UHGV virus genome: UHGV-0168750
Source of the DNA: a virus
Reading direction: 5' to 3' (one strand)
DNA length: 14,223 nucleotides
Shown: positions 1 through 12,441 of the stretch, in pieces
Position numbering within the stretch: position 1 is the first letter of the stretch
Layout: every line of letters begins with the position of its first letter
Translations under genes and position numbers: made by a program
The notes under the pieces: generated by a model
What the model was told of the DNA's origin: nothing
The model's database searches: none
The model's input: only the letters and a program-made list of their open reading frames with translations

Positions 1-48
1 TCTACACGTAAGGAGTCGTCGGCAGCGTCAGATGTGTATAAGAGACAG
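1..48. other. Library artefact: Illumina Nextera-type adapter (P5 tail TCTACAC, 8-nt index GTAAGGAG, read-1/Tn5 mosaic-end adapter)
   Basis: Positions 16-48 read TCGTCGGCAGCGTCAGATGTGTATAAGAGACAG, the Nextera read-1 transposase adapter; 1-7 TCTACAC is the 3' end of the P5 primer and 8-15 GTAAGGAG sits where the i5 index belongs (from memory this is index 505). Exact string match read directly. Confidence 0.9.
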
Positions 49-49
49 G

Positions 50-843: not shown

Positions 844-1308
844 ATGAAATGTTTTGAATCTAAAGAAATTGTTGAGTTGTTTAAACAGCGTGAGAAAACC
901 GCTTTCCGTGACCTGTACGATTCTGATTATCGCCCACTGTTTGCGGTATTGTTGAAACTGGATAAAGAACCCGAAATCGCATTAGCAGAGGTACAGCACC
1001 ACCACGTCAGTTTCGTATTAACCGAAAACATGAGCCGGTGGGTAGATGCTATGCTGATCCGTATTGGGCTCTTGGAAACGCCACACCGTTGGGAAGTGGT
1101 TATTCAGAAATCATTATTCCCACGTGAAGACATTTTCAACAAATATCGTCCGAAACAGTATTACAACCACGACGGGTCGCCAAAACGTGCTTTCCTGGCA
1201 CCGCAACACTTCGTAACCTACGTAACATTGCGTTACAAAGACACCGTGGTGCCGTTTGACACCTACCTGGAAATGCGTGAGATAATTTTAGGGAAGAATC
1301 CGTCATGA
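844..1308 (+). CDS. Hypothetical protein (154 aa)
   Basis: AGGAG at 831-835, 8 nt upstream of ATG 844; stop overlaps the next start (ATGA at 1305-1308). Confidence 0.65.
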   Translation: MKCFESKEIVELFKQREKTAFRDLYDSDYRPLFAVLLKLDKEPEIALAEVQHHHVSFVLTENMSRWVDAMLIRIGLLETPHRWEVVIQKSLFPREDIFNKYRPKQYYNHDGSPKRAFLAPQHFVTYVTLRYKDTVVPFDTYLEMREIILGKNPS

Positions 1309-1787
1309 TTCAATTTTCTGTTGACTCAGAAAGACTGGCGTCGTTTAAAGAGCGTGCTCAGTCTGCAACTAAAAACGGTTACATTGAGAAAGGTGTTCGT
1401 GATACTTGTAAACTAATCAACGACCATCCACATCTGGCAACAATGTGGAGTTGTGAAGGTCACGGTATGTATTCCAAGTCGCCAGGAAATCTGCATATCG
1501 TTTTTGCAGTACATGCCCTCGGGAATCAAATTCCGATGCAGGTTATGTCCGAGCTTGCAAAATCCGATCTTCCCAATTTCTGGAATCTTAGTTTGTGTCG
1601 TCTTTATCTACCCGATGAATATACAGATTTGGTATATCTTGAACCTGATTACGGGTTAAATACCGACGACACTTCTTACTGGGCTTGGAAAGTCGGATAC
1701 ATGTGTCTGATTAATCGTCCCGCATTAGTCGAAACACGTCAAGCACTTTATAAAGCATTTCACACTGTATTAGTTGAGAATAAATAA
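1305..1787 (+). CDS. Hypothetical protein (160 aa)
   Basis: ATG overlapping the upstream stop; stop TAA overlaps the next ATG (TAATG at 1785-1789). Confidence 0.6.
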   Translation: MIQFSVDSERLASFKERAQSATKNGYIEKGVRDTCKLINDHPHLATMWSCEGHGMYSKSPGNLHIVFAVHALGNQIPMQVMSELAKSDLPNFWNLSLCRLYLPDEYTDLVYLEPDYGLNTDDTSYWAWKVGYMCLINRPALVETRQALYKAFHTVLVENK

Positions 1788-2481: not shown

Positions 2482-3003
2482 GTGATAGCGAGACTTGCGA
2501 GTTGGTTTAAGCAACGTCGGGCAAAGGCGGTCGAATGGCCGCCTATTACGCACGATGAAAAGGTGGTTGCTTTTCTGAACTATAACAAAGACTTGAAGAG
2601 ATTGGGCGAAATAATGCGCCTAAAGGAAACCCAAGTCTTTGCTAAGATTTCAAGTAGTGCTTTACGTAAACAAGTATTTCCCCACCTATCCTTTTCAGGG
2701 CAAGTTTATGCAATAACCGCAGAGAAATTTTTATCGATGGCGGGCAATGAAACCCCACGCATACGGTTCTCGGCTACAGATTCATCTGATGCGGTCGGTA
2801 CAGTTGATTTCGGACGATTCTATCGATGCATTAAAGACGTGGGCCATATACATGTTAAACGGGTATCAGAAACATCTGTAGTGATTTATCACCGTACTGA
2901 GAATGATTTGTTAGGGCGTGTTATAACGTTAACGAATTTACATAGTTTTTACGTTGATTTACTCACTGAGTTTTATCCAGAACCATGGTGTTTTATACGA
3001 TGA
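2482..3003 (+). CDS. Hypothetical protein (173 aa), GTG start
   Basis: GTG at 2482 lies 2 nt after the upstream TAA, preceded by AGGAAGAGGA; stop TGA overlaps the next ATG (ATGA at 3000-3003). Confidence 0.55.
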   Translation: MIARLASWFKQRRAKAVEWPPITHDEKVVAFLNYNKDLKRLGEIMRLKETQVFAKISSSALRKQVFPHLSFSGQVYAITAEKFLSMAGNETPRIRFSATDSSDAVGTVDFGRFYRCIKDVGHIHVKRVSETSVVIYHRTENDLLGRVITLTNLHSFYVDLLTEFYPEPWCFIR

Positions 3004-3212
3004 ACAGAGCTAATGGATATATCATCTCGGCAATTGTTTCAACCGTGCTGATTGTGACGATGTTGATGTTTTATGTCCGTGTGTCAGATGACTCACGCAA
3101 AGAAAGCCTTTATCGTGAATGTATGTCGGGAACGACTGTGGACAATCCGCGTTACAGCGAATTGGTAATGGCGTGCACAGAACATGCTAAGCTAATGGGA
3201 GATGGCCGATGA
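3000..3212 (+). CDS. Small membrane protein (70 aa) with one N-terminal transmembrane helix
   Basis: ATG at 3000 in an ATGA overlap; hydrophobic stretch YIISAIVSTVLIVTMLMFYV followed by a charged tail. The ORF-track start at 2985 is rejected because it overlaps the upstream gene. Confidence 0.5.
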   Translation: MNRANGYIISAIVSTVLIVTMLMFYVRVSDDSRKESLYRECMSGTTVDNPRYSELVMACTEHAKLMGDGR

Positions 3213-3406
3213 AGATTTGGTTACCGATTGTAGCTTTTGTTCTTATTGCGGGCGCACTAGCAAGTGCCGAGTGTGACAATCGTGTTTTAGAAAAGAAAAG
3301 CGAATTGTATCAGGATTGCATAAAGGACTACACACCCGGTACAGAGCTTCATGCGCAGGCTGTAAAAAGTTGTGCGCTGATGGCTGAATCGCAGACTCGT
3401 TCCTAA
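3209..3406 (+). CDS. Small secreted or periplasmic Cys-containing protein (65 aa) with a signal-peptide-like N-terminus
   Basis: MKIWLPIVAFVLIAGALASA then ECDN; four Cys in the mature part; ATGA overlap with the upstream gene. No canonical lipobox. Confidence 0.5.
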   Translation: MKIWLPIVAFVLIAGALASAECDNRVLEKKSELYQDCIKDYTPGTELHAQAVKSCALMAESQTRS

Positions 3407-3780
3407 TGCGTATCTGGACGTTACAGCTTGCTAAGTGGCGGTTAGCGAAATCGAAGGGATTTTACGCGGTAGATATTACAGTCAAATCAGGGCGAAAGGA
3501 ACTCGCCCCCGACTGGGATTTCTTAATGGCGTATAAAAACTCCACAAAGGACGCAACTGCTGAAGCCGACTATACCGTAAAGTATCTTTACAAGCTTGAA
3601 CGATTACTGGACTCAGATGCCGAAGTGTTGGTATCGTTACTTAGGCACGAAGACCTGGTGCTGATGTGTTATTGTCCCGCAGGTAAGTTTTGCCATCGAC
3701 ACTTACTGGCTAAGAAACTTCAAGACGTCGGAATGATGTTCGGTTTTGACGTTGAGTTATGTGGAGAATTAACGGACTGA
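3406..3780 (+). CDS. Hypothetical protein (124 aa) with a C-x-C-x6-CHR motif; possibly DUF488/YeaO-like
   Basis: TAATG coupling; motif LVLMCYCPAGKFCHRHLLAKKL near the C-terminus. Family assignment is from memory of the DUF488 pattern, not a search. Confidence 0.5.
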   Translation: MRIWTLQLAKWRLAKSKGFYAVDITVKSGRKELAPDWDFLMAYKNSTKDATAEADYTVKYLYKLERLLDSDAEVLVSLLRHEDLVLMCYCPAGKFCHRHLLAKKLQDVGMMFGFDVELCGELTD

Positions 3781-3807
3781 TTCGATTTTTAGATGTAAAA
3801 TGACCTT

Positions 3808-3852
3808 CTACCGCCCGATTCTATGGGCGGTAGGTGTTTTTATTTTTTTTTT
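3808..3852 (+). terminator. Rho-independent terminator closing the upstream small-gene block
   Basis: Perfect 9-bp stem CTACCGCCC (3808-3816) / GGGCGGTAG (3825-3833), 8-nt loop, then a T-rich run (3835-3852) including ten consecutive T. Confidence 0.65.
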
Positions 3853-3868
3853 GATCTGGGAGGTTTTA

Positions 3869-4429
3869 GTGGCCACTTACGTACCTGATTTAAGCCTGAC
3901 CTCAGCCGAATTAGTGGTCGCTTTAATCAACCACGATAACGGTTCACAGTTGTCTTTAAGAGAAATTCGTATTAGCAACACTGTGGTAAACCCGTCTCCG
4001 ACCACTTCGCGTCGTAACACACTGTCAGAGATTACAAAAATCAGGAAACCTGACGGTGCTTCTGTGGTTGTTTATTACGATCGCTTAGATGCGGAAGAAG
4101 TATTAGCTTCTGAACCTATTTTGATTTCGTTAGACGGTACTGAAGATAACATTCGTGACATTTTAGATGTTGTAAATGAATTCTGCGGAACGAACTTACA
4201 GCCTGACGATTTGCGCGCTTCAGATATCACATTAGGTAACGATCCCATTGCTGTTAACGTTGCTGACGATTCTCCTGCGTGGATGAATGCGTTTATGGTG
4301 ACGTTATTCGATACAACCGAACGAGCATTAGCCAACGAAGAAGACGCGATCTTCTGTATTGGCGATGTTGCTGTTCTTACATTTGAGGTTCCAGATGGCG
4401 ACTCAGCTGAAGAAAACCCGACTACATGA
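3869..4429 (+). CDS. P1a: conserved small protein (186 aa), paralogue of 13013-13528; likely tail-fibre-associated
   Basis: GTG at 3869 preceded by GGGAGG (3858-3863). N-terminus VATYVPDLSLTS..LINHD matches MGQFVPDLSLTS..LINHD of the paralogue; shared motifs KIRxP, YYxRLxAE, CG(T/S)NLQP(D/E)DL, VLTF. The ORF-track start at 3800 lies inside the terminator hairpin. Confidence 0.6.
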   Translation: MATYVPDLSLTSAELVVALINHDNGSQLSLREIRISNTVVNPSPTTSRRNTLSEITKIRKPDGASVVVYYDRLDAEEVLASEPILISLDGTEDNIRDILDVVNEFCGTNLQPDDLRASDITLGNDPIAVNVADDSPAWMNAFMVTLFDTTERALANEEDAIFCIGDVAVLTFEVPDGDSAEENPTT

Positions 4430-4856
4430 ACTTGACAGTTTTACCGGTGACCCACAGGGCGGGGTATTACTGTTTAGTAAAGAGAATAAAGAATACAAAA
4501 TTAACGCCGAACAGTTACTACCAACGAACACCGTAACTACGGTAAACGGTGCTGACGGCACGGCAACGATTAATCCAAATAACGTTACTGACGTTATACT
4601 GGTATTAAACGATCCTGCGACAACCTTAACTATCTCCCCGTTAACGGAAGCCAAAGCAAACGTTCGGGTTGAGTTTTATTTAACCGTTAAGCAAGGAACA
4701 GGGGCGAATAAGATTACTTGGCCGGATAATGTAAAATGGCCACATAACGCAACTCCTGTTTTGTCCTTTACAGCTAATGCGGAAGATACATTAGCGTTCT
4801 ATACGCTTGATGGTGGGACTACGTGGAAAGGTTCCCTCATCGCCGCAGGTTACTAA
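4395..4856 (+). CDS. P2a: small protein (153 aa) carrying the shared N-terminal module (putative virion-docking domain)
   Basis: ATG at 4395 preceded by GAGGT; residues 5-40 KKTRLHELDSFTGDPQGGVLLFSKENKEYKINAEQL align with the N-termini of the long fibre and of 13528-14148. Overlaps P1a by 35 nt. Confidence 0.6.
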   Translation: MATQLKKTRLHELDSFTGDPQGGVLLFSKENKEYKINAEQLLPTNTVTTVNGADGTATINPNNVTDVILVLNDPATTLTISPLTEAKANVRVEFYLTVKQGTGANKITWPDNVKWPHNATPVLSFTANAEDTLAFYTLDGGTTWKGSLIAAGY

Positions 4857-4858
4857 CG

Positions 4859-7800
4859 ATGAGAAAAACTTTTCAACGACACGCTATTTCTTACGCACTG
4901 TCGTTAGCCTACGGGCACCAAACATTCGTTACTCGAAATACGGGGACAACGAATGATGCTCACACAGACCACTTTATTCAGAATGAAGAAGGGGTCTTAG
5001 CTAATAACCGTCACTTTATTGCAGATACGATGGCGGAGTACCAGCCCAATGGTGATGCAACGACCGAAGGTCAATCGCTACACATCCTTGGGTACTGTCA
5101 TCTGTATATTGCAACTAAAGACCCAAGATGGTTAGATGCAGCAAAACATGCATGGGATGCTTACACTACCTACTTTTACGGTGGGCAAGCTATTCCGACT
5201 ACACCTCAGCGTTTTATTTGTAACTGGTTAGTAAACGGAAAAGAGCCGGTACTCGCGCACTATCCGATACACCCAACAGAACCTACACACGGTGGTTACA
5301 AATGTGTACCCGTCAGGTTCACTAACGGTCAGTGCAAAATACCACACGGTGCACCGTTCTGGGGTGAATATCTAGACACCTTTACGTTTGCTCATCGTGG
5401 TCATCCAACGTGGGGTGCTATTAATGCGGACGTACAGATTATCAAGGAGGATAAAGAAGGGTTAATCGATTGGGATGCTGTGTTAACGCATCTGATTACG
5501 AATCCCGATAAACCTTACGAAACGAAAGCCTGGGTTGACTGGCCAACGTTACTGAACAACGCTACTGGCTACACACCGCTGTGGGGTGGTTCTTCATCAA
5601 AAGGACCTAAGCACGATGTCGACTGGATAGTTGCCTGGACAGGTAACAAGATTCAGGATAGCGAGATTATTGAGTCGGGCTTAGCAGACGCCGATAAAGG
5701 TACCGTACAGTTAAAAGATACTCAATTAAACGGTGTCTATTTAATTAACTACGCGGTAAAACTTCCTGTCGAGCACGGCGGTTATGCTTTTAAACGTAAT
5801 GAACCGTGGCACAACCGACCCGTACATACACCATTCTTAGGCTCTAAGAACCAGTACGGTAATGCAGCAGATGCAGAACTGTGGTTTATCGACGCTTGTT
5901 ATTTGCTGTGGCGAATTACAGGTGAAGATAAATACAAACACGCGTTAGACTGTGCGTTTTACACCGCACACGAGTATACGTATATTGATGCCGCCGACAA
6001 GTTCTTTAGACGTTCTACGGCCGCAGAAACACCGTTTACCGATGGTATCTCTTACGACTTCGATTATCCCGATACCGTGAGCGTCGAATACGGTCGCGAT
6101 ACGAATGGCGATATCACTATCCACGCACCTAAAGCTGTACAACACTTTATGGAGCAGCAAGCAGTACGTTTTAGAATCAATAAAGATTCTAAGCTCAGAG
6201 TGACGTATGGTGGTGTGTGTAAAAACGGTGACCCGGTATATTGTCGTGCGATGGTTGACATTAATCCGGTAAAGGCTGACACGGAAGAAGTGAACTGGTA
6301 CGGTTTAACGTTACCCCGTTCTACTTCGTTAAGCGTTAAGCAATACGATATTGACTTAGGTCAACTTGCACGGATTACTACCCCAGAAGGGGAAGACTAT
6401 TTAATCGCAGATGCACGAGCCTGCTCGGATTACGGCGGTTGTACGTGGGAAGAACGGTTTGAAGACAATATCTACGATGGTCGTGCGGGTACCATTGTCG
6501 AAGCTTTATTTCCGAATGACGATGCGGGCTTTATTATCGGTTTCTGGTTAACCGAAGCGGAGAAGGTTAAGCCGGTTTCTATCGTTTATCGTGCGGACGC
6601 AGACTTTAACCTACGTTTAGTTGATTCTGATAACTGGCGTTGGTGGTGGATGTTACCGAACACGAACAACGAATGGCGACAAGTAACCTTAAATTTAGAG
6701 GACGCGACGTTATCGGGATACCAACCTGACCACACTGACGCTGATCCTGAGCCTTCAGCACCTAACTTCGATAAGGTTGACCAGGTTACTATCCTGCCCG
6801 ATTCTGCTGTAGACCACGCTCACTTTGCTTACTATTGCGTGAATGATGTCCCGCCGGTCTTTAATAAAGATGATGGGTATATCCTCACGTTCCGTATCGC
6901 TTTACGCGGTGGGAGTGAGTTTGACGCAAAAGTCGGCGATTGTACCATCAAAGACTATCGTTTAGACTCACTGGCGTATTGTCCTGGGACGATTCCGTTC
7001 TCGAATATTTATTCAGAAGGGTCTGAACAGCTCGGTGCATGGCACGGTATGCCCTACCCAGGTTATCAATATCCGTTTATGTACGCAATACACAAAGATG
7101 ACCGGTATAAACTGTGGTTAGAGAACCAAATACAGTTTATGCATGACTCGCAAATTGCGTATCAAAAACAGATTGGTGAGTTAGGGCCAGGTTGTGCAGC
7201 CTATATCTGGAATCGTTGGGATAACTACAGTTACGGAAAACCAGATACCTGGACAACATTCCATTGGGGTGACGATCACCCCTGGGCAGGCTACCAACCG
7301 CGCGCATTTCATGCTGCCTGTCGGTGTTGGTACGAGTTAACGTTACGAGGCAAATCAGTTCCTGAGACGTTAACAACCTATATCGAGAATTGGGTGAATT
7401 GGTTAGGTGGGTTTGTGGATAGGTTTAATGGCCACACGCCAAACGAGTTCCCCACAGCACCGAATAAGCCGGTTTGGGTAGAAGACGACTTTACAGCGCA
7501 TATGTGTGCGCTGTGGTTAGCGGGTTGTTGCTGGGCGTTACTTGCCGGTGCGACGAACCCTAACTACGAAAAAGTAGTTAATGCCGCAATTAAAGAGCTC
7601 GGTGACGGGTTTACGATTACGTCAATTCCAAACAAACCCATTAATGGTGCTTGGTCGCCTGCGCCACGAGAGTCTTCGGATAACGGAATGGCTTTTGGTT
7701 TCTATACCGGTGAAGCATTACGTGCTTTAGGACTTTATATCACTTATAAAACTTACGGAGCCAACACAAACATTTATCATGACTTAGCAATCCCAGAACA

Positions 7801-7864
7801 CGAAAGCGCGGTATTAGACGTCACCATCGCCTTAGAAGATGACGCATTAAAACCGGAATTATAA
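4859..7864 (+). CDS. Large Trp/Tyr-rich protein (1001 aa); putative virion-associated carbohydrate-active enzyme (depolymerase-like)
   Basis: ATG at 4859 is 3 nt after the P2a stop, in frame with the ORF-track GTG at 4823. Helical segments such as ADAELWFIDACYLLWRITGEDKYKHALDCAFYTAHEY and AHMCALWLAGCCWALLAGATNPNYEKVVNAAIKELGDG recall alpha/alpha-barrel glycosidases or lyases. Existence of the gene is secure; the function is inferred. Confidence 0.7.
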   Translation: MRKTFQRHAISYALSLAYGHQTFVTRNTGTTNDAHTDHFIQNEEGVLANNRHFIADTMAEYQPNGDATTEGQSLHILGYCHLYIATKDPRWLDAAKHAWDAYTTYFYGGQAIPTTPQRFICNWLVNGKEPVLAHYPIHPTEPTHGGYKCVPVRFTNGQCKIPHGAPFWGEYLDTFTFAHRGHPTWGAINADVQIIKEDKEGLIDWDAVLTHLITNPDKPYETKAWVDWPTLLNNATGYTPLWGGSSSKGPKHDVDWIVAWTGNKIQDSEIIESGLADADKGTVQLKDTQLNGVYLINYAVKLPVEHGGYAFKRNEPWHNRPVHTPFLGSKNQYGNAADAELWFIDACYLLWRITGEDKYKHALDCAFYTAHEYTYIDAADKFFRRSTAAETPFTDGISYDFDYPDTVSVEYGRDTNGDITIHAPKAVQHFMEQQAVRFRINKDSKLRVTYGGVCKNGDPVYCRAMVDINPVKADTEEVNWYGLTLPRSTSLSVKQYDIDLGQLARITTPEGEDYLIADARACSDYGGCTWEERFEDNIYDGRAGTIVEALFPNDDAGFIIGFWLTEAEKVKPVSIVYRADADFNLRLVDSDNWRWWWMLPNTNNEWRQVTLNLEDATLSGYQPDHTDADPEPSAPNFDKVDQVTILPDSAVDHAHFAYYCVNDVPPVFNKDDGYILTFRIALRGGSEFDAKVGDCTIKDYRLDSLAYCPGTIPFSNIYSEGSEQLGAWHGMPYPGYQYPFMYAIHKDDRYKLWLENQIQFMHDSQIAYQKQIGELGPGCAAYIWNRWDNYSYGKPDTWTTFHWGDDHPWAGYQPRAFHAACRCWYELTLRGKSVPETLTTYIENWVNWLGGFVDRFNGHTPNEFPTAPNKPVWVEDDFTAHMCALWLAGCCWALLAGATNPNYEKVVNAAIKELGDGFTITSIPNKPINGAWSPAPRESSDNGMAFGFYTGEALRALGLYITYKTYGANTNIYHDLAIPEHESAVLDVTIALEDDALKPEL

Positions 7865-7883
7865 CCCGCTTATAAAAAAAAAT

Positions 7884-7905
7884 GGGGGAGCATTCTACCT
7901 CCCCC
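7884..7905 (+). promoter_or_regulatory. GC-rich hairpin in the intergenic region upstream of the long tail-fibre gene
   Basis: GGGGGAG (7884-7890) / CTCCCCC (7899-7905) with an 8-nt loop, preceded by TATAAAAAAAAA (7871-7882); only a short T run follows, so a weak terminator or RNA stability/processing element. Confidence 0.3.
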
Positions 7906-7938
7906 GATCTTTTAGCTCCCGATAGAGAATTAAATATC

Positions 7939-10900
7939 ATGGCTAAAGCGGTCAAGAAAATACGTTTGCACGATTTACGTCCTTACGCCGGTGATATCGG
8001 TGAAGGCGTTTTGCTTTTTTCGAAAGACGAAAAAGATTATCAATTACCAGTCCGTGAGATCGTTGCTGATATTGACACCGTAAGGAACGCGGTTGCTGAT
8101 GCACAGTCCGCAGCAGCACAATCACAACAGTCGGCCACAGAAGCAACACAAGCAAAAGATTTAGCGGAAACCGCGAAACAGCAGGTTGACACTACCGCAT
8201 CAACTGTTAGCGAACAAGCACAAACGGTAGCAACAAAAGCGGCTGAGGTCGGCACAAAACATGCCGAAGTTTTAGCAGCAAAAACAGCAGTAGACACTGT
8301 TTTACAGTCGGTGAACGAAAAGGCTCAGGCCGTCTCTGCGAGTGAAAAAGCAGTCACAACAGCCGCCGCCGACGTAACGAAGAAAGCAGAAACTGTTACC
8401 CAGCAAGCTGGTCAAGTTCAACAGTCAGTCACTAGCATCACTGAAATTGCGGCAACTGTTGAAGCCAGTAAAGGCGCTGTGGAAGCTACTGCTGTACAAG
8501 TTACGAAAGACAAAGAATCCGCAGAAGGGGCAGCGACGCGTTCAGAAGCTGCTGCACAACGTGCTGAAGACATCGCTGCACAGGGGTTAATTGACGCCAC
8601 TACAGCTAACAAGGGTATCGTTAAACTTAATAATACCCTAACCAGTGATTCAGTAACGGAAGCGGCTACACCGTCGACAGTGAAGCAACTGAACGACGAG
8701 CTGCAATTAAAAGCCAACAAGCACTCACCGAACTTTACGGGGCAGCCGTCAGCACCAACACCTCCGAAAAATTCTAATGATACCAGTATTTCGACTACTG
8801 CGTGGGTACGTGCAGCTATCGCTGAATTAGTCGGTTCTTCTCCTGAAACGTTAGATACCTTAGCGGAATTAGCCGAAGCGCTGGGTAATGATCCTAACTT
8901 CGCAACAACGATTACTGAGAAACTTGCGCAGAAGCAACCTATCAGTCCGTTACTCACTGCAATCGCTGCGGTTACGACAGCGGCAAATAAACTCCCGTAT
9001 TTCACCGGCACTAATAAAGTCGGGTTAGCCGATTTTACAGAAACCGCCAGAACGTTATTAGCGAAAGGTTCAACAACCGAAATCATTGAGTTTTTAGGAT
9101 TAAAAGCCACCGTAGATAAAGCGAATGGCGCATTACAGAAAAACTCTAATGGTGCTGATATTCCAGATAAAGAAACATTTGCCCGCAATATTGGTCTGTC
9201 TCCTGACACTTATCTGCGTTTCCGTGGTGAAATGCCAACTGATGCGGATATCAACACTTTCGCCCCAGATACCAACTACACGGGTACGTGGTCGAAAGCA
9301 ACCTCGACCAACGCGACAATGGCAAAACACTTTCCAGAAGACGGTGCGGTCGGTTATCTGGAAGTGTATAAAGCGGGTAACTATAGCGGTGCACAACGTT
9401 TTACCTGTCGTAATGGTAACGTCTATAACCGTATGTTGTCAGGTGTGTGGAACGGCACTAATGGCCCGTGGTCACCGTGGAGAATGGTAACTACCGGTGT
9501 ACGTCCACTGGCTACATCAATTGACCTGAACTCCTTAGGCGGTGCCGAACACATGGGTAACTGGCGAAACTCGTCCAGTTCGTTGGCTACCTTTGCTAAC
9601 CACTACCCGGAAGAGGGCGGTGCTGCTCAAGGTGTTTTGGAAGTCATGGAAGGCGGTCTTTACGGACGTTTACAACGTTACACTACTCGACGTGGTACGA
9701 TGTATGTTCGTGGTTTGACGGCGACGTGGGATTCTACTAATCCGCAATGGGAAGATTGGATTCAGGTAGGTTATCAAACCGACGGCGCGTATTACAAAGG
9801 AAACTTCGATAACCTGACTAAACCAGGTCGTTTCAGCGTCACTGGAGAAGCCACGAATGGTCCCCTTACAGGTCCTTCGGGTGAAACATTGTTGGGTGTC
9901 TGTGCAGTTACTGTACGTTTAGACGGTACAGGGATCGAACAAACCTACACCACGCACGGTACAGGTGCGGAGTACAAAGGTCGACGTTTCCACCGTATTC
10001 GTACGGGTAATGTCTGGACGCCGTGGCGCGAGATTTACGACTCGAACAGTTTAGCCATGTTGTTAGGGGTCGGCGGCGAACGTGCGAATGTTGATCCTTT
10101 AGACTGGCAAACCTACGACTTTAAACCGGGTGAATTAATCTGTACGCCACTTAATACCATGAAAAACATTCCTGCGGGAATGGATTGGGGTGTTATCGAC
10201 GGTAATTTAATTAACATCCTGGTTGGGCCATCTGATGGCGCTACGTCAGGTCGAAGTATGTTGGTTTGGCGTAGTACGGTGTCTACCGCCAACTATCGCT
10301 TCTTTGCAGTACGTATCGCCGGTGAGAAGGGTAGCCGTACGATTACGCCACGACAAATGCCTGTGTTGAATGCGGCGCACACTTGGACAGAGAAACAGAC
10401 CTTTGCAAAAGGCTTGTCGGGCGAATTAACCGGTAATGCTTCAACCGCAACCAAATTACAAACTGCCCGGAAAATCGGTGGCGTTGGGTTTGACGGTAGT
10501 GGTGATATTAACCTCCCAGGCGTAAACCAACAGGGTAATCAAAACACCACGGGTAATGCCGGGACAGCCACTAAACTTCAAACCGCCAGAAATATTAACG
10601 GCGTGAGATTCGACGGTTCTGGCGATATTAATATCAACACCCTGGTAGGTCGTGGTCGGGTTACAGCTCTAACCGGCTCAGCGAAAGGTACACCTGGTAT
10701 CCAGATGTACGAAGTTTACAATAACGGTTATCCGACCGCTTATGGTAACTTACTACATTTAGGTGGTTCTACAGCTGTAGGCGAAGGCGAACTGTTAATC
10801 GGTTGGTCAGGTACTAACGGCGCACACGCCCCAGTGTTTATCCGTAGTCGTCGCGACAATGCGGAAGCACCATGGTCGGACTGGGCACAGGTATACACCG

Positions 10901-12441
10901 CCCGCGATAGCATCCCAGGGGTAAACGCGACTGGTAATCAAGATACTACCGGTAACGCGGCTACCGCGACGAAGTTGAAAACCGCTCGCAAAATTGGCGG
11001 TGTGAGCTTTGATGGTACTGGGGATATCAATTTACCGGGGGTTAACCAGCAAGGCAACCAGAATACGACAGGTAATGCAGCAACCGCTACCAAGTTACAA
11101 ACCGCAAGAACCATCAATGGTGTTGCGTTTGACGGCACTAAAAACATCGAAATAACGGCTGAAAGTTTAAATCTTGGTCAAACCGTAGAATTGGCCGGTG
11201 GGTCATTGCAGAAAAACCAGAACGGCGCAGATATTCCTGATAAGGGTCGCTTCCTGAGTAACATTAATGTTTACAGCAAAGGCGAGGTGGATGAGAAAAA
11301 AGGAATGCGGCAGTACGTATTTAACGCGCCGTCTAATGCCGTTGGCGGAAAGTGGTATCCAGTTATTTTCCGGCGTTCCACTGGTAGCACCGGCGAACTG
11401 GCTTCCAGAGTAGTTATTACAACTACATCTGCCGGTGGCGATTACGCAATGAATAACTGCGAATTCAATGGAACGGTAATGGCGGGCGGTTGGACTGATC
11501 GCGGTTCATACGCAGCAGGGTATTTTTCGATATATCAGACTAATGAGCGCGCAATCCATTCCATTGTAACAGGTGTGAAAGATGATGATGTGTGCAGCGT
11601 TTTTTACGTCGAAGGTAGGGCTTTCCCTATTCGAGTTTTTGCCGAAGAAGGGTTATCGGTTAGTGTTCCGACCCAGAATTATACCGTCGGTCAAACAACC
11701 TATAAGTGGGGAGCAACTAATCCTGCGACAGAAAGCACGAACGCACAAACCATTTTGGATTTTAACAATGGACGAGGATTTTATTGTTCCCATTCAATAT
11801 TCGCTATTAATAGTATTTTAAGCGGTAATCTGGGTATCGGTACCGCGAATGCTTTAGGTGGGAATTCCATAGTTTTAGGGGATAATGACACCGGTCTTAA
11901 ACAGAATGGGGACGGTATTCTAGATGTCTATGCCAACGGTCGACATGTATACCGTTTTCAAAACGGCATTGCTATTGCTCTTTATGGTGTTCAGGCTGGT
12001 AACGGTAAAAAACTTTCGTTAACTAGCGCAAACAATTCCACGTTGAATGCGGGTCTTAACATTTGGGGTAACTCTTCGCGTCCAACTGTTGTAGAACTCG
12101 GTGATGACGCAGGCTGGCATTTTTATAGCCAACGAAACACCGACAACTCGATATCGTTCGCCGTTAATGGGCAAATTCAACCGGGAAACTGGAGTAATTT
12201 CGATTCCAGGTACCAAGCACGGTCAGGAGTTGTCCAGGATGTTCGTTTCGGTGGTCAAAGTTATCATAACCCCGGGAGTAATACGACCTCTTGGAATTTC
12301 TCCGCTCCAGGTGGTCATTGTCTTACTGGTATTTCTATATCGGATACTGGCAAAAACTCGGCAGATAACGTTAACGGTGTTTATTATCGCCCGCTACAAA
12401 AATTGGTTAATGGTACTTGGTACAACGTCGCGTCGGTATAG
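7939..12441 (+). CDS. Long tail fibre protein (1500 aa)
   Basis: N-terminal shared module [36 protein letters not shown]; Ala/Gln/Thr-rich coiled-coil-like region; tandem ~75-aa domains; four copies of the tail-fibre repeat TGNAxTATKLxTARxIxGVxFDGSGDI; C-terminal [13 protein letters not shown]-type motif; followed by a Tfa chaperone gene. The ORF-track start at 7882 lies inside the hairpin. Confidence 0.85.
9247..10038 (+). repeat. Three tandem ~75-aa domain repeats inside the fibre (a fourth diverged copy at about 10640-10897)
   Basis: Each unit ends in a Trp-rich motif: [38 protein letters not shown], and in the fourth copy [12 protein letters not shown]. Protein-level periodicity; the nucleotide sequences are diverged. 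Confidence 0.45.
10432..10636 (+). repeat. Pair of tail-fibre sequence repeats (~33 aa each) inside the fibre gene
   Basis: [69 protein letters not shown]; the T-A-T-K-L...FDGSxDI pattern is the classical phage tail-fibre repeat shared by T-even and lambdoid side fibres. Confidence 0.7.
10933..11154 (+). repeat. Second pair of tail-fibre sequence repeats
   Basis: [74 protein letters not shown]; same motif as 10432-10636 with many synonymous differences, so an old duplication. Confidence 0.7.

What the first reader, a model, noticed from the sequence alone, without database searches (positions are those of the whole stretch)
3406..3780. Cys-x-Cys-x6-Cys-His-Arg protein, possibly DUF488/YeaO-like, closing the early block
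The motif LVLMCYCPAGKFCHRHLLAKKL and the overall size fit my recollection of the DUF488 family, whose function is unknown. The Cys/His cluster could bind a metal. A conserved domain of unknown function carried by a phage next to membrane-targeted genes is a reasonable anti-defence or host-modulation candidate.
Basis: partly seen in the sequence, partly recalled or inferred. Interest (0 to 1): 0.45.

Follow-up and report, generated by a model that had tools for sequence, protein, structure and literature searches.

The report
Jumbo-phage DUF488-N3a cysteine enzyme
This is a real, well-conserved small gene of a giant (phiKZ/SPN3US-type) phage that belongs to an already catalogued family of predicted cysteine-dependent phosphate-handling enzymes (DUF488-N3a); its chemistry has never been tested, but it probably acts on NAD/ADP-ribose-derived molecules.

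Summary
The ORF at 3406-3780 (+, 124 aa) is real and under purifying selection. The motif is there, but the spacing is C88-x-C90-x5-C96-H97-R98, not x6. The protein scores above the curated cut-off for Pfam PF22751, "active DUF488-N3 subclade" (45.9 bits against 27). It falls just below the cut-off of the general DUF488 model. E. coli YeaO belongs to the same N3 subclade but to its inactive branch, and it lacks all three Cys and the Arg.

The window comes from an SPN3US/Asesino-like jumbo phage. The gene is the ortholog of SPN3US gp120, phiKZ gp151 and PhiPA3 gp174. A confident AlphaFold model (pLDDT 96) has a rhodanese-phosphatase-type fold, and its closest solved structure is the RapZ C-terminal domain. 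The Cys/His/Arg residues sit at the strand-loop-helix junction where this superfamily has its active site, and they are invariant in 115 relatives.

Family members are fused to NADAR, SLOG and NAD-binding ligase domains. This points to processing of ADP-ribose or nucleic-acid phosphates. Published knock-down of phiKZ gp151 raised phage yield about ten-fold.

I could not test whether the site binds a metal. Verdict: a new member of a known but biochemically uncharacterised family, of moderate interest.

The parts
3406..3780 (+). CDS, 124 aa. DUF488-N3a protein, ortholog of SPN3US gp120, phiKZ gp151 and PhiPA3 gp174.
   Evidence: ORF. Pfam PF22751, 45.9 bits against a cut-off of 27. PHROG 2450, E = 1e-42. 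Homologs at 97%, 88% and 58-60% identity. dN/dS 0.11. AF2 model with pLDDT 96.4.
3667..3699 (+). Codons for C88-Y-C90-P-A-G-K-F-C96-H97-R98. Predicted active-site loop between strand 83-88 and helix 97-112.
   Evidence: Invariant in 115 homologs. Secondary structure from the AF2 model. Same strand-loop-helix position as the C-x5-R-S motif of RapZ-C.
3478..3516 (+). Codons for T25-V-K27-S-G ... A34-P35-D-W37. Second conserved patch, a probable substrate- or phosphate-binding loop after strand 2.
   Evidence: T25 and P35 are invariant; K27, S28, G29 and W37 are at least 90% conserved in 115 homologs. The role is inferred.
3807..3852 (+). Intrinsic-terminator-like hairpin (3807-3834) plus T-run (3837-3852) that ends the transcription unit containing the gene.
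   Evidence: 11-pair stem with 7 G-C pairs. An equivalent hairpin lies before the virion-structural module in SPN3US (L002 6788-6827).
2985..3212 (+). Upstream 75-aa ORF with an N-terminal transmembrane-like segment. It overlaps the next ORF by ATGA.
   Evidence: Present at similar size in relative L001. No family match.
3209..3406 (+). Upstream 65-aa ORF with a signal-peptide-like N-terminus. Its stop overlaps the DUF488 start (TAATG), indicating translational coupling.
   Evidence: A 65-aa ortholog is present in L001.
3869..4429 (+). Downstream virion structural gene (DUF7941), first gene of the tail-fibre module. Probable true start is GTG 3869, preceded by GGGAGG at 3858-3863.
   Evidence: PHROG and Pfam matches start at residue 28-30 of the ATG-3800 ORF. 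The L001 ortholog is 186 aa, which equals 209 minus 23. The terminator overlaps codons 3-12 of the ATG-3800 reading.

Best explanation
The gene encodes a small stand-alone enzyme of the rhodanese-phosphatase superfamily, in the RapZ-C / DUF488 / DUF4326 clade and the 'active DUF488-N3' subclade.

Shown: the family membership, the fold, the invariance of the motif and its position at the superfamily's active-site junction, and the fusion partners.

Inferred: the loop C88-Y-C90-PAGKF-C96-H97-R98, sitting between a beta-strand and the N-terminus of a helix, forms an anion-binding cradle. One cysteine (C88 or C90) attacks a terminal phosphate or phospho-ribosyl group. R98, helped by K27 and T25, holds the phosphate. 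H97 acts as a general acid/base. The remaining cysteines act as back-door or resolving thiols, or possibly as metal ligands.

Inferred from domain fusions: the substrate is an NAD+/ADP-ribose-derived nucleotide, or an ADP-ribosylated or phosphorylated nucleic-acid end. The biological role is tuning NAD/ADPr-centred phage-host conflict or the phage's own infection programme.
For: Family: PF22751 at 45.9 bits against a cut-off of 27. All 115 relatives match PF22751, 32 also match DUF488 and 27 weakly match DUF4326.

Active site: T25, P35, C88, C90, C96, H97 and R98 are invariant in 115 sequences. The motif lies at the end of strand 83-88 and the start of helix 97-112. RapZ has ...AIG-C-TGGKH-R-S... 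at the same junction. YeaO and the second copy in the tandem protein P0043 keep the fold but lose the Cys/Arg residues. This matches Pfam's active/inactive split.

Context: fusions to NADAR (P0103 at E = 6e-36, P0117 at E = 2e-12), to a YAcAr SLOG domain (P0125), to a DprA-like SLOG domain (P0143, below cut-off) and to Nlig-Ia (P0121 and P0162, below cut-off). Four more fusions carry a domain whose only PDB sequence hits are NADAR 8bau and 8bat.

Literature: DUF4326, which has the same fusion partners, was predicted to process terminal phosphates on the ribose of ADPr (PMC9503650; PMC7824862). Phage NADAR (T4 gp30.3, AdfN) counters DarTG1 (PMC11825919). ASO knock-down of phiKZ gp151 raised PFU about ten-fold and changed phage transcription at 30 min (PMC12571901).
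Against: No biochemical activity has been shown for any DUF488 or DUF4326 protein in the literature I could search.

Invariance of three Cys plus His would also suit a metal site.

Gene neighbourhoods in the window and in four distant phage contigs show no NAD/ADPr partner genes. Fusions are a minority of the family. About 21 of the top 150 cluster representatives are longer than 200 aa, and only some of their partner domains are identified.

The phiKZ phenotype came from one of two ASOs and could be polar on gp150.
Confidence: 0.55

Rival explanations
1. Metal-binding, non-catalytic protein. C88, C90, C96 and H97 chelate Zn (or Fe), and the domain acts as a ligand- or RNA-binding adaptor or sensor. 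RapZ-C works this way: it binds a sugar phosphate and the sRNA GlmZ without catalysis.
For: Three Cys plus one His are invariant across 115 sequences, which is a typical metal-ligand set. The best structural match, RapZ-C, is a binding domain and not an enzyme (PMC9841335 is listed). From memory, not verified here, the sister family DUF4326 shares C-x-C...C-H but lacks the Arg; 27 of 115 members weakly match DUF4326. The phiKZ knock-down changes phage transcription, which would fit a regulator.
Against: The inactive N3i sister (YeaO) and the second copy of P0043 keep the fold without the cysteines, so these residues are not needed for folding. C96 and H97 are adjacent residues, which is awkward for joint chelation. 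The invariant R98 and the K27/T25 patch are what a phosphate-binding catalytic pocket needs. Repeated fusion to enzymes that cut ADPr linkages suggests a sequential enzymatic step. The geometry was not measured.
Confidence: 0.2
2. Sulfur- or redox-transfer enzyme, either rhodanese-like (persulfide carrier) or arsenate-reductase-like (Cys relay). The three cysteines would form a thiol-disulfide cascade acting on a small molecule or on a modified nucleic acid.
Against: No sulfur-metabolism, thiouridine or arsenic genes are fused to the domain or lie near it. The fusion partners all concern NAD/ADPr. The invariant Arg and His favour phosphate chemistry.
Confidence: 0.1
3. Virion or tail-assembly accessory protein, with the position next to the tail-fibre module reflecting a structural role.
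For: The gene lies directly upstream of the DUF7941 structural gene and the tail-fibre and tail genes. This order is conserved in SPN3US and Asesino.
Against: A terminator separates it from the structural module. In the phiKZ record its neighbours gp146, gp149 and gp153 are marked structural but gp151 is not. In phiKZ the gene sits elsewhere, near RNase H gp155 and a vRNAP subunit. Conservation of enzyme-like residues is not expected of a scaffold protein. In other phages it sits in unrelated contexts.
Confidence: 0.03

Closest known systems
Pfam PF22751, DUF488-N3a ('active DUF488-N3 subclade'; rhodanese-phosphatase superfamily, defined by Burroughs & Aravind 2023, a paper I could not read here)
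   Same: The score is above the curated cut-off. The Cys...Cys-His-Arg motif is intact. The protein is a single domain of about 120 aa. The fusion partners (NADAR, SLOG, Nlig-Ia) are seen within the same homolog set.
   Different: The phage clade is a divergent branch. It scores only 38-46 bits, and the model covers residues 26-107 only. E. coli YeaO scores 87 bits on the same model.
phiKZ gp151 (PHIKZ151), PhiPA3 gp174 and SPN3US gp120: orthologs in nucleus-forming jumbo phages
   Same: 40-58% identity over the full length with an identical motif. The PhiPA3 gp174 model superposes at TM 0.89. In the SPN3US/Asesino group the position upstream of the tail-fibre and tail-protein genes is the same.
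   Different: The immediate neighbours differ. The two small membrane ORFs here replace SPN3US gp117-119, and SPN3US has an extra gene, gp121, before the terminator. phiKZ gp151 lies in another context. Only phiKZ gp151 has a phenotype on record.
E. coli YeaO (DUF488-N3i, the inactive subclade)
   Same: Same N3 subclade, size and predicted fold. YeaO matches PF22751 at 87 bits, and hhalign aligns residues 17-107 of the window protein to YeaO 28-114.
   Different: YeaO has Y, A, N, H, A where the phage protein has C88, C90, C96, H97, R98. Its best match is PF22752 (138.9 bits). It is presumably non-catalytic.
RapZ C-terminal domain (PDB 5o5q, 5o5s)
   Different: 11% identity and no significant sequence or profile match. 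RapZ has a single Cys and a shorter loop. It is an RNA and sugar-phosphate-binding adaptor and is not known to be an enzyme.
DUF4326 (PF14216), a phage and giant-virus domain fused to Macro, NADAR and SLOG
   Same: Sister family with the same kinds of fusion partners. It has weak cross-matches: 27 of 115 members at E up to 0.01, phiKZ gp151 at 18.7 bits, SPN3US gp120 at 16.9 bits. BFVD DUF4326 models are structural hits. It is predicted to process terminal phosphates on ADPr ribose (PMC9503650).
   Different: The window protein gives no DUF4326 hit at all. All cross-matches are below the 25-bit cut-off.
Cys-based protein and lipid phosphatases (PTP, DSP, PTEN, LMW-PTP; C-x5-R)
   Different: The loop is 2-4 residues longer (C-x7-R or C-x9-R) and contains extra Cys and His. 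Similarity is only marginal, and there is no WPD-type acid loop.

Membership tests
DUF488-N3a (PF22751) | Score at or above the Pfam gathering cut-off (27 bits) | tested here: met
   45.9 bits, E = 8e-12. 115 of 115 relatives match.
DUF488-N3a (PF22751) | Intact Cys...Cys-His-Arg motif, which separates the 'active' from the 'inactive' N3 proteins | tested here: met
   C88, C90, C96, H97 and R98 are present and invariant. YeaO (N3i) lacks them.
DUF488-N3a (PF22751) | Rhodanese-phosphatase-type Rossmannoid fold with the motif at the strand-loop-helix junction | tested here: met
DUF488-N3a (PF22751) | Catalytic activity implied by the name 'active' | not testable with these tools
   No biochemical data for any member were found in the searchable literature.
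DUF488 general model (PF04343) | Score at or above the gathering cut-off (22.2 bits) | tested here: inconclusive
   The window protein scores 19.0 bits, below the cut-off. The ortholog SPN3US gp120 scores 28.3 bits, above it. 32 of 115 relatives match at E up to 0.01.
YeaO-type (DUF488-N3i, PF22752) | Best match to the N3i model and a degenerate motif | tested here: not met
   The window protein has no PF22752 hit at E up to 10. YeaO scores 138.9 bits on it and has Y, A, N, H, A at the motif positions.
DUF4326 (PF14216) | Score at or above the gathering cut-off (25 bits) | tested here: not met
   No hit for the window protein. Orthologs score 16.9-18.7 bits.
PTP/DSP Cys-phosphatases | C-x5-R(S/T) signature | tested here: not met
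   The spacing is C90-x7-R98 or C88-x9-R98. RapZ-C has C-x5-R-S.
Cys3His metal site | Three S-gamma and one His N within ligand distance (about 3.5-4 Å between ligands) in the structure | not testable with these tools
   The AF2 model coordinates are not exposed to any tool. Only secondary structure and pLDDT are returned.
Known anti-phage defence or anti-defence families (PADLOC, NCBIfam) | Significant match to a curated model | tested here: not met
   PADLOC gives only weak hits to candidate-system components: PDC-M45C at 19.5 bits and PDC-M19A at 18.9 bits. NCBIfam has nothing relevant.

The most novel reading that the evidence does not exclude
DUF488-N3a proteins of jumbo phages are a new class of cysteine-dependent enzymes. 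They would remove or transfer a phosphate on ADP-ribose-derived immune signals, or on ADP-ribosylated or phosphorylated DNA/RNA ends. They would work downstream of, or in parallel with, NADAR, Macro and SLOG enzymes, which cannot handle phosphate-linked ADPr. They would thereby set the outcome of NAD+-based host immunity, or restrain the phage's own programme, as hinted by the higher yield when phiKZ gp151 is knocked down.
Probability: 0.3. Interest if true: 0.65.

Novelty: new member of a known kind. Interest (0 to 1): 0.35.

Why it matters
DUF488 proteins, including E. coli YeaO, are widespread, and no activity has been demonstrated for any of them. The phage 'active N3' branch is large: 4,886 clusters at 50% identity at E up to 1e-3. 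It is conserved across the phiKZ, PhiPA3, SPN3US and Erwinia jumbo phages. It is repeatedly fused to ADP-ribose-processing domains, and in phiKZ it has a measurable knock-down phenotype. This makes it a small, tractable protein for finding the missing chemistry of the RapZ-C/DUF488/DUF4326 clade, and possibly a new step in NAD/ADP-ribose-centred phage-host conflict. For genome annotation, the gene should be labelled 'DUF488-N3a family protein (predicted Cys-dependent phosphoesterase)' and not 'YeaO-like'.

Tried and rejected
- The defining paper (Burroughs & Aravind 2023, NAR Genom Bioinform lqad029, PMC10034599) is not held. Statements about it rest on the Pfam model names and on my memory of its abstract.
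- PDB sequence searches found no solved relative, either with the single protein (0 hits) or with the family profile (only chance hits such as RecQ1 at E = 0.27).
- Foldseek against PDB found nothing below E = 0.05. The AFDB50 library was unavailable.
- hhalign of the family profile against the RapZ sequence was not significant, so the RapZ link is structural only.
- Gene neighbourhoods of four distant members showed no recurrent partner. Pfam and PHROG annotation of the window's other ORFs found no NAD/ADPr genes.
- NCBIfam gave only an irrelevant weak hit. PADLOC gave only weak hits to candidate systems.
- The shared fusion-partner domain (phrog_652) did not reach significance against NADAR by hhalign to a single NADAR sequence or by Pfam. 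Only the marginal PDB NADAR hits and a weak Phage_30_3 hit support the NADAR-like reading.
- The NARP3 paper turned out to be unrelated.
- I rejected a sequence or ORF artefact (homologs and dN/dS), a virion structural role (terminator, phiKZ annotation) and YeaO orthology (motif absent in YeaO).
- The expression class (early or late) could not be established.

Full report
**Observation.** The window contains an ATG-initiated ORF at 3406-3780 on the + strand that encodes 124 aa. No competing ORF of 60 aa or more lies on either strand. The spacing is C88-Y-C90-P-A-G-K-F-C96-H97-R98 (nt 3667-3699), so the motif is C-x-C-x5-C-H-R and not x6. The start codon overlaps the stop of the upstream 65-aa ORF (TAATG). 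That ORF in turn overlaps the 75-aa ORF before it (ATGA), so the three genes are translationally coupled. Against its closest relative (97% aa and 96.5% nt identity, locus L001) the gene shows 9 synonymous and 4 non-synonymous differences, dN/dS about 0.11. This is a real gene under purifying selection.

**Where the window comes from.** There is no close DNA match among GenBank phages apart from a mosaic tail-fibre segment. The 1013-aa tail protein at 4823-7864 is 74-80% identical at the amino-acid level to the tail proteins of Erwinia phage Asesino and of Salmonella phage SPN3US and its relatives, which have genomes of 240-246 kb. In those genomes the homolog of our gene sits in the same place, 1.5-2 kb upstream of the tail protein. 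The ortholog is SPN3US_0120 (gp120), labelled 'DUF488 family protein' in RefSeq. tblastn finds the gene in 294 phage records, nearly all of them jumbo phages. These include phiKZ (PHIKZ151), PhiPA3 (gp174), 201phi2-1, Phabio, Ea35-70 and Serratia, Vibrio, Klebsiella and Xanthomonas jumbo phages. The window is therefore a piece of a new SPN3US/Asesino-like jumbo phage.

**Family membership.** hmmscan gives Pfam PF22751 'DUF488-N3a, active DUF488-N3 subclade' at E = 8e-12, 45.9 bits against a cut-off of 27. The general DUF488 model PF04343 scores 19.0 bits, just below its cut-off of 22.2. PHROG 2450 (unknown function) matches at 1e-42. NCBIfam offers nothing useful. The SPN3US ortholog passes both models, and phiKZ gp151 passes N3a. 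In a 115-member alignment, all members match PF22751, 32 also match DUF488 and 27 weakly match DUF4326. An exhaustive profile search finds 4,886 clusters at 50% identity at E up to 1e-3, and 1,228 at E up to 1e-10. Most are stand-alone proteins of 120-130 aa, so this is a large, mostly phage-borne family.

**Comparison with YeaO.** E. coli YeaO matches the inactive model PF22752 (N3i) best, at 138.9 bits. It also matches DUF488 (110.5 bits) and N3a (87.3 bits). hhalign aligns the two proteins over about 87 residues. It places YeaO residues Y, A, N, H, A opposite C88, C90, C96, H97, R98. The phage protein is thus the catalytically intact sister of YeaO within the same N3 subclade and is not a YeaO ortholog.

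**Conservation.** In 22 close homologs the invariant residues are T25, K27, A34, P35, W37, C88, C90, C96, H97, R98, L100 and G120. In 115 diverse homologs with mean column identity of 11%, T25, P35, C88, C90, C96, H97 and R98 remain invariant. K27, S28, G29, W37, Y89, F95 and H99 are at least 90% conserved.

**Structure.** AlphaFold2 run on the 22-sequence alignment gives mean pLDDT 96.4 and pTM 0.89. The fold is alpha/beta with elements E2-7, H8-17, E20-23, H37-44, H50-78, E83-88, H97-112 and E117-121. The motif spans the end of strand 83-88, an eight-residue loop and the first turn of helix 97-112.

[quoted passage not shown] The paper itself is not held.

RapZ carries ...LTVAIG-C-TGGKH-R-S... 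(C-x5-R-S) at the equivalent strand-helix junction. By pattern, the GK and HR residues line up with PAGKFCHR. This makes C90 (with a two-residue insertion) or C88 (the last residue of the strand) the counterpart of the superfamily's nucleophilic Cys. That assignment is an inference. hhalign to the RapZ sequence is not significant.

**Metal site or active site.** I could not measure the Cys/His geometry, because the model coordinates are not exposed. Three points argue against a purely structural metal site.
- The inactive N3i proteins, such as YeaO, keep the fold without the cysteines.
- The second copy in the tandem protein P0043 has lost C90, C96 and H97, while the first copy keeps them.
- The invariant R98 and the T25/K27 patch are what a phosphate pocket needs.

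Points that keep a metal site possible are the strict invariance of all three Cys plus His, and the apparent sharing of C-x-C...C-H with DUF4326 (from memory; only weak cross-matches were seen here). A Cys relay, as in LMW-PTP or ArsC enzymes (established knowledge), is a third option.

**Context.** Inside the window, nothing near the gene relates to NAD or ADP-ribose. Upstream lie two small, paralog-like ORFs with hydrophobic N-termini. Downstream, a strong terminator-like hairpin at 3807-3834 followed by a T-run separates the gene from the virion-structural and tail-fibre module. SPN3US has an equivalent 17-bp hairpin after gp121, immediately before the same module. The gene does close a transcription unit, but whether that unit is early is not established. 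Neighbourhoods of four distant members show no recurrent partner.

**Domain fusions.** The informative context comes from fusions among the top 150 cluster representatives.
- N3a + NADAR: P0103 at E = 6e-36 and P0117 at E = 2e-12.
- YAcAr SLOG + N3a: P0125.
- DprA-like SLOG + N3a: P0143, below the cut-off.
- Nlig-Ia, the NAD+-binding domain of NAD-dependent ligases, on either side of N3a: P0121 and P0162, both below the cut-off.
- Four more proteins (P0046, P0072, P0086, P0096) share a partner domain (phrog_652 and phrog_11222). Its only PDB sequence hits are the two NADAR entries 8bau and 8bat (E = 0.05-0.1). The alignment runs through the LSNF...F-S-x-E core, and one member gives a weak Phage_30_3 hit. 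This is suggestive and not significant.

**Literature.**
- T4 gp30.3 is AdfN, a NADAR that neutralises DarTG1 (PMC11825919).
- NADARs reverse guanine ADP-ribosylation of DNA and RNA but not phosphate-end ADP-ribosylation (PMC11833690).
- The Aravind laboratory noted the same fusion pattern for DUF4326. [quoted passage not shown]
- DUF488 also sits beside a YAcAr/YpsA SLOG gene in Methanoperedens plasmids.
- PADLOC gives only weak hits to components of unvalidated candidate defence systems.

**Experimental data on an ortholog.** In the antisense-oligomer screen of phiKZ (Gerovac et al., Nature 2025, PMC12571901), PHIKZ151 is listed as a non-core, uncharacterised gene. One of its two ASOs increased PFU by about an order of magnitude. 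The authors read this as counter-regulation of infection or altered host vulnerability. Knock-down also had strong effects on phage transcription at 30 min. Caveats are that only one ASO worked, that the effect could be polar on gp150, and that no complementation was reported. In the phiKZ record gp151 is not flagged as a virion protein, whereas its neighbours gp146, gp149 and gp153 are.

**Interpretation.** The best-supported reading (confidence 0.55) is a small cysteine-dependent phosphoesterase or phosphotransferase of the rhodanese-phosphatase superfamily. It would act on a phosphate or ribosyl-phosphate group of an NAD+/ADP-ribose-derived nucleotide or of a nucleic-acid end, and would be used by jumbo phages to tune NAD/ADPr-centred conflict or their own programme. 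The family, the fold, the motif position and invariance, the fusions and the phiKZ phenotype are shown. The nucleophile, the substrate and the biological role are inferred. The rivals are a Cys3His metal-binding, non-catalytic adaptor (0.2), a sulfur or redox relay (0.1) and a structural role (0.03).

**Novelty and interest.** The family is already catalogued (a Pfam entry from 2023) and orthologs are annotated as DUF488 in RefSeq. This is therefore a new member of a known kind, from an unsequenced relative of SPN3US and Asesino. Its value is as a tractable entry point to an uncharacterised enzyme clade, which I rate as moderate interest (0.35).

Noticed in passing
window 1-49 (adapter core 16-48): The window starts with the Illumina Nextera/Tn5 read-1 adapter TCGTCGGCAGCGTCAGATGTGTATAAGAGACAG. 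It matches the extreme ends of unrelated phage records (Vibrio, Acinetobacter, lambda-like). This is an assembly artefact at a contig end. The ORF 32-280 starts inside it, so its start codon is spurious.
   Followed up: partly
window 3800-3871: The ATG at 3800 of the next ORF is probably a false start. Its codons 3-12 are the terminator hairpin, and its 'hydrophobic N-terminus' (FIFFLIW) is the translated T-run. GTG 3869, preceded by GGGAGG at 3858-3863, gives a 186-aa protein, the same length as the ortholog in L001. The PHROG and Pfam (DUF7941) matches begin just after it.
   Followed up: partly
window 2985-3212 and 3209-3406: Two tandem small ORFs (75 and 65 aa) have an N-terminal transmembrane or signal segment and a similar two-cysteine ectodomain pattern (E-x-LY-x-x-C ... 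C-x-x-x-A/M). They look like paralogs, match no family, and replace SPN3US gp117-119 at this position.
   Followed up: no
window 11071-11793 (inside the 1519-aa ORF 7882-12441): This segment of the large tail-fibre gene is 79-88% identical at the DNA level to tail-fibre genes of P2-like (Peduovirus) and P1/P7-like phages. The rest of the window has no DNA match. It appears to be a horizontally exchanged receptor-binding module in a jumbo phage.
   Followed up: no
L006 (Vibrio phage ICP1_2006_A, HQ641351.1) 1412-1650: ICP1-type phages carry only a remnant of the N3a gene. A 49-aa ORF holds the CYCKAGDFCHRH motif, and a 31-aa ORF in another frame covers part of the middle. The N-terminal TVKSG/AP-W part is missing, so the gene is apparently decaying in that lineage.
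   Followed up: partly
P0043 (244 aa, metagenomic homolog): This is a tandem duplication of the domain. The first copy has an intact motif (KCYCDSDDFCHRF). The second (KCYGEITAQHSPRF) has lost C90, C96 and H97. It pairs an 'active' and an 'inactive' copy within one polypeptide.
   Followed up: no
P0046, P0072, P0086, P0096 (fusion partners; phrog_652 and phrog_11222): An unannotated phage domain of about 150 aa is fused on either side of N3a. It has the motifs H-x-N-x-YS, LG-x-x-LSNF, F-x-S-x-EA-YY and HYY-YG. Its only PDB sequence hits are NADAR structures (E = 0.05-0.1), and one member gives a weak T4 gp30.3 (AdfN) Pfam hit. It is probably a divergent NADAR family not yet covered by Pfam.
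   Followed up: partly
window 1305-1787: This 160-aa ORF (PHROG 7413, unknown function) has a sub-threshold Pfam hit to the tRNA-yW methyltransferase TYW3 (19.2 bits against a cut-off of 27) over residues 11-52.
   Followed up: no
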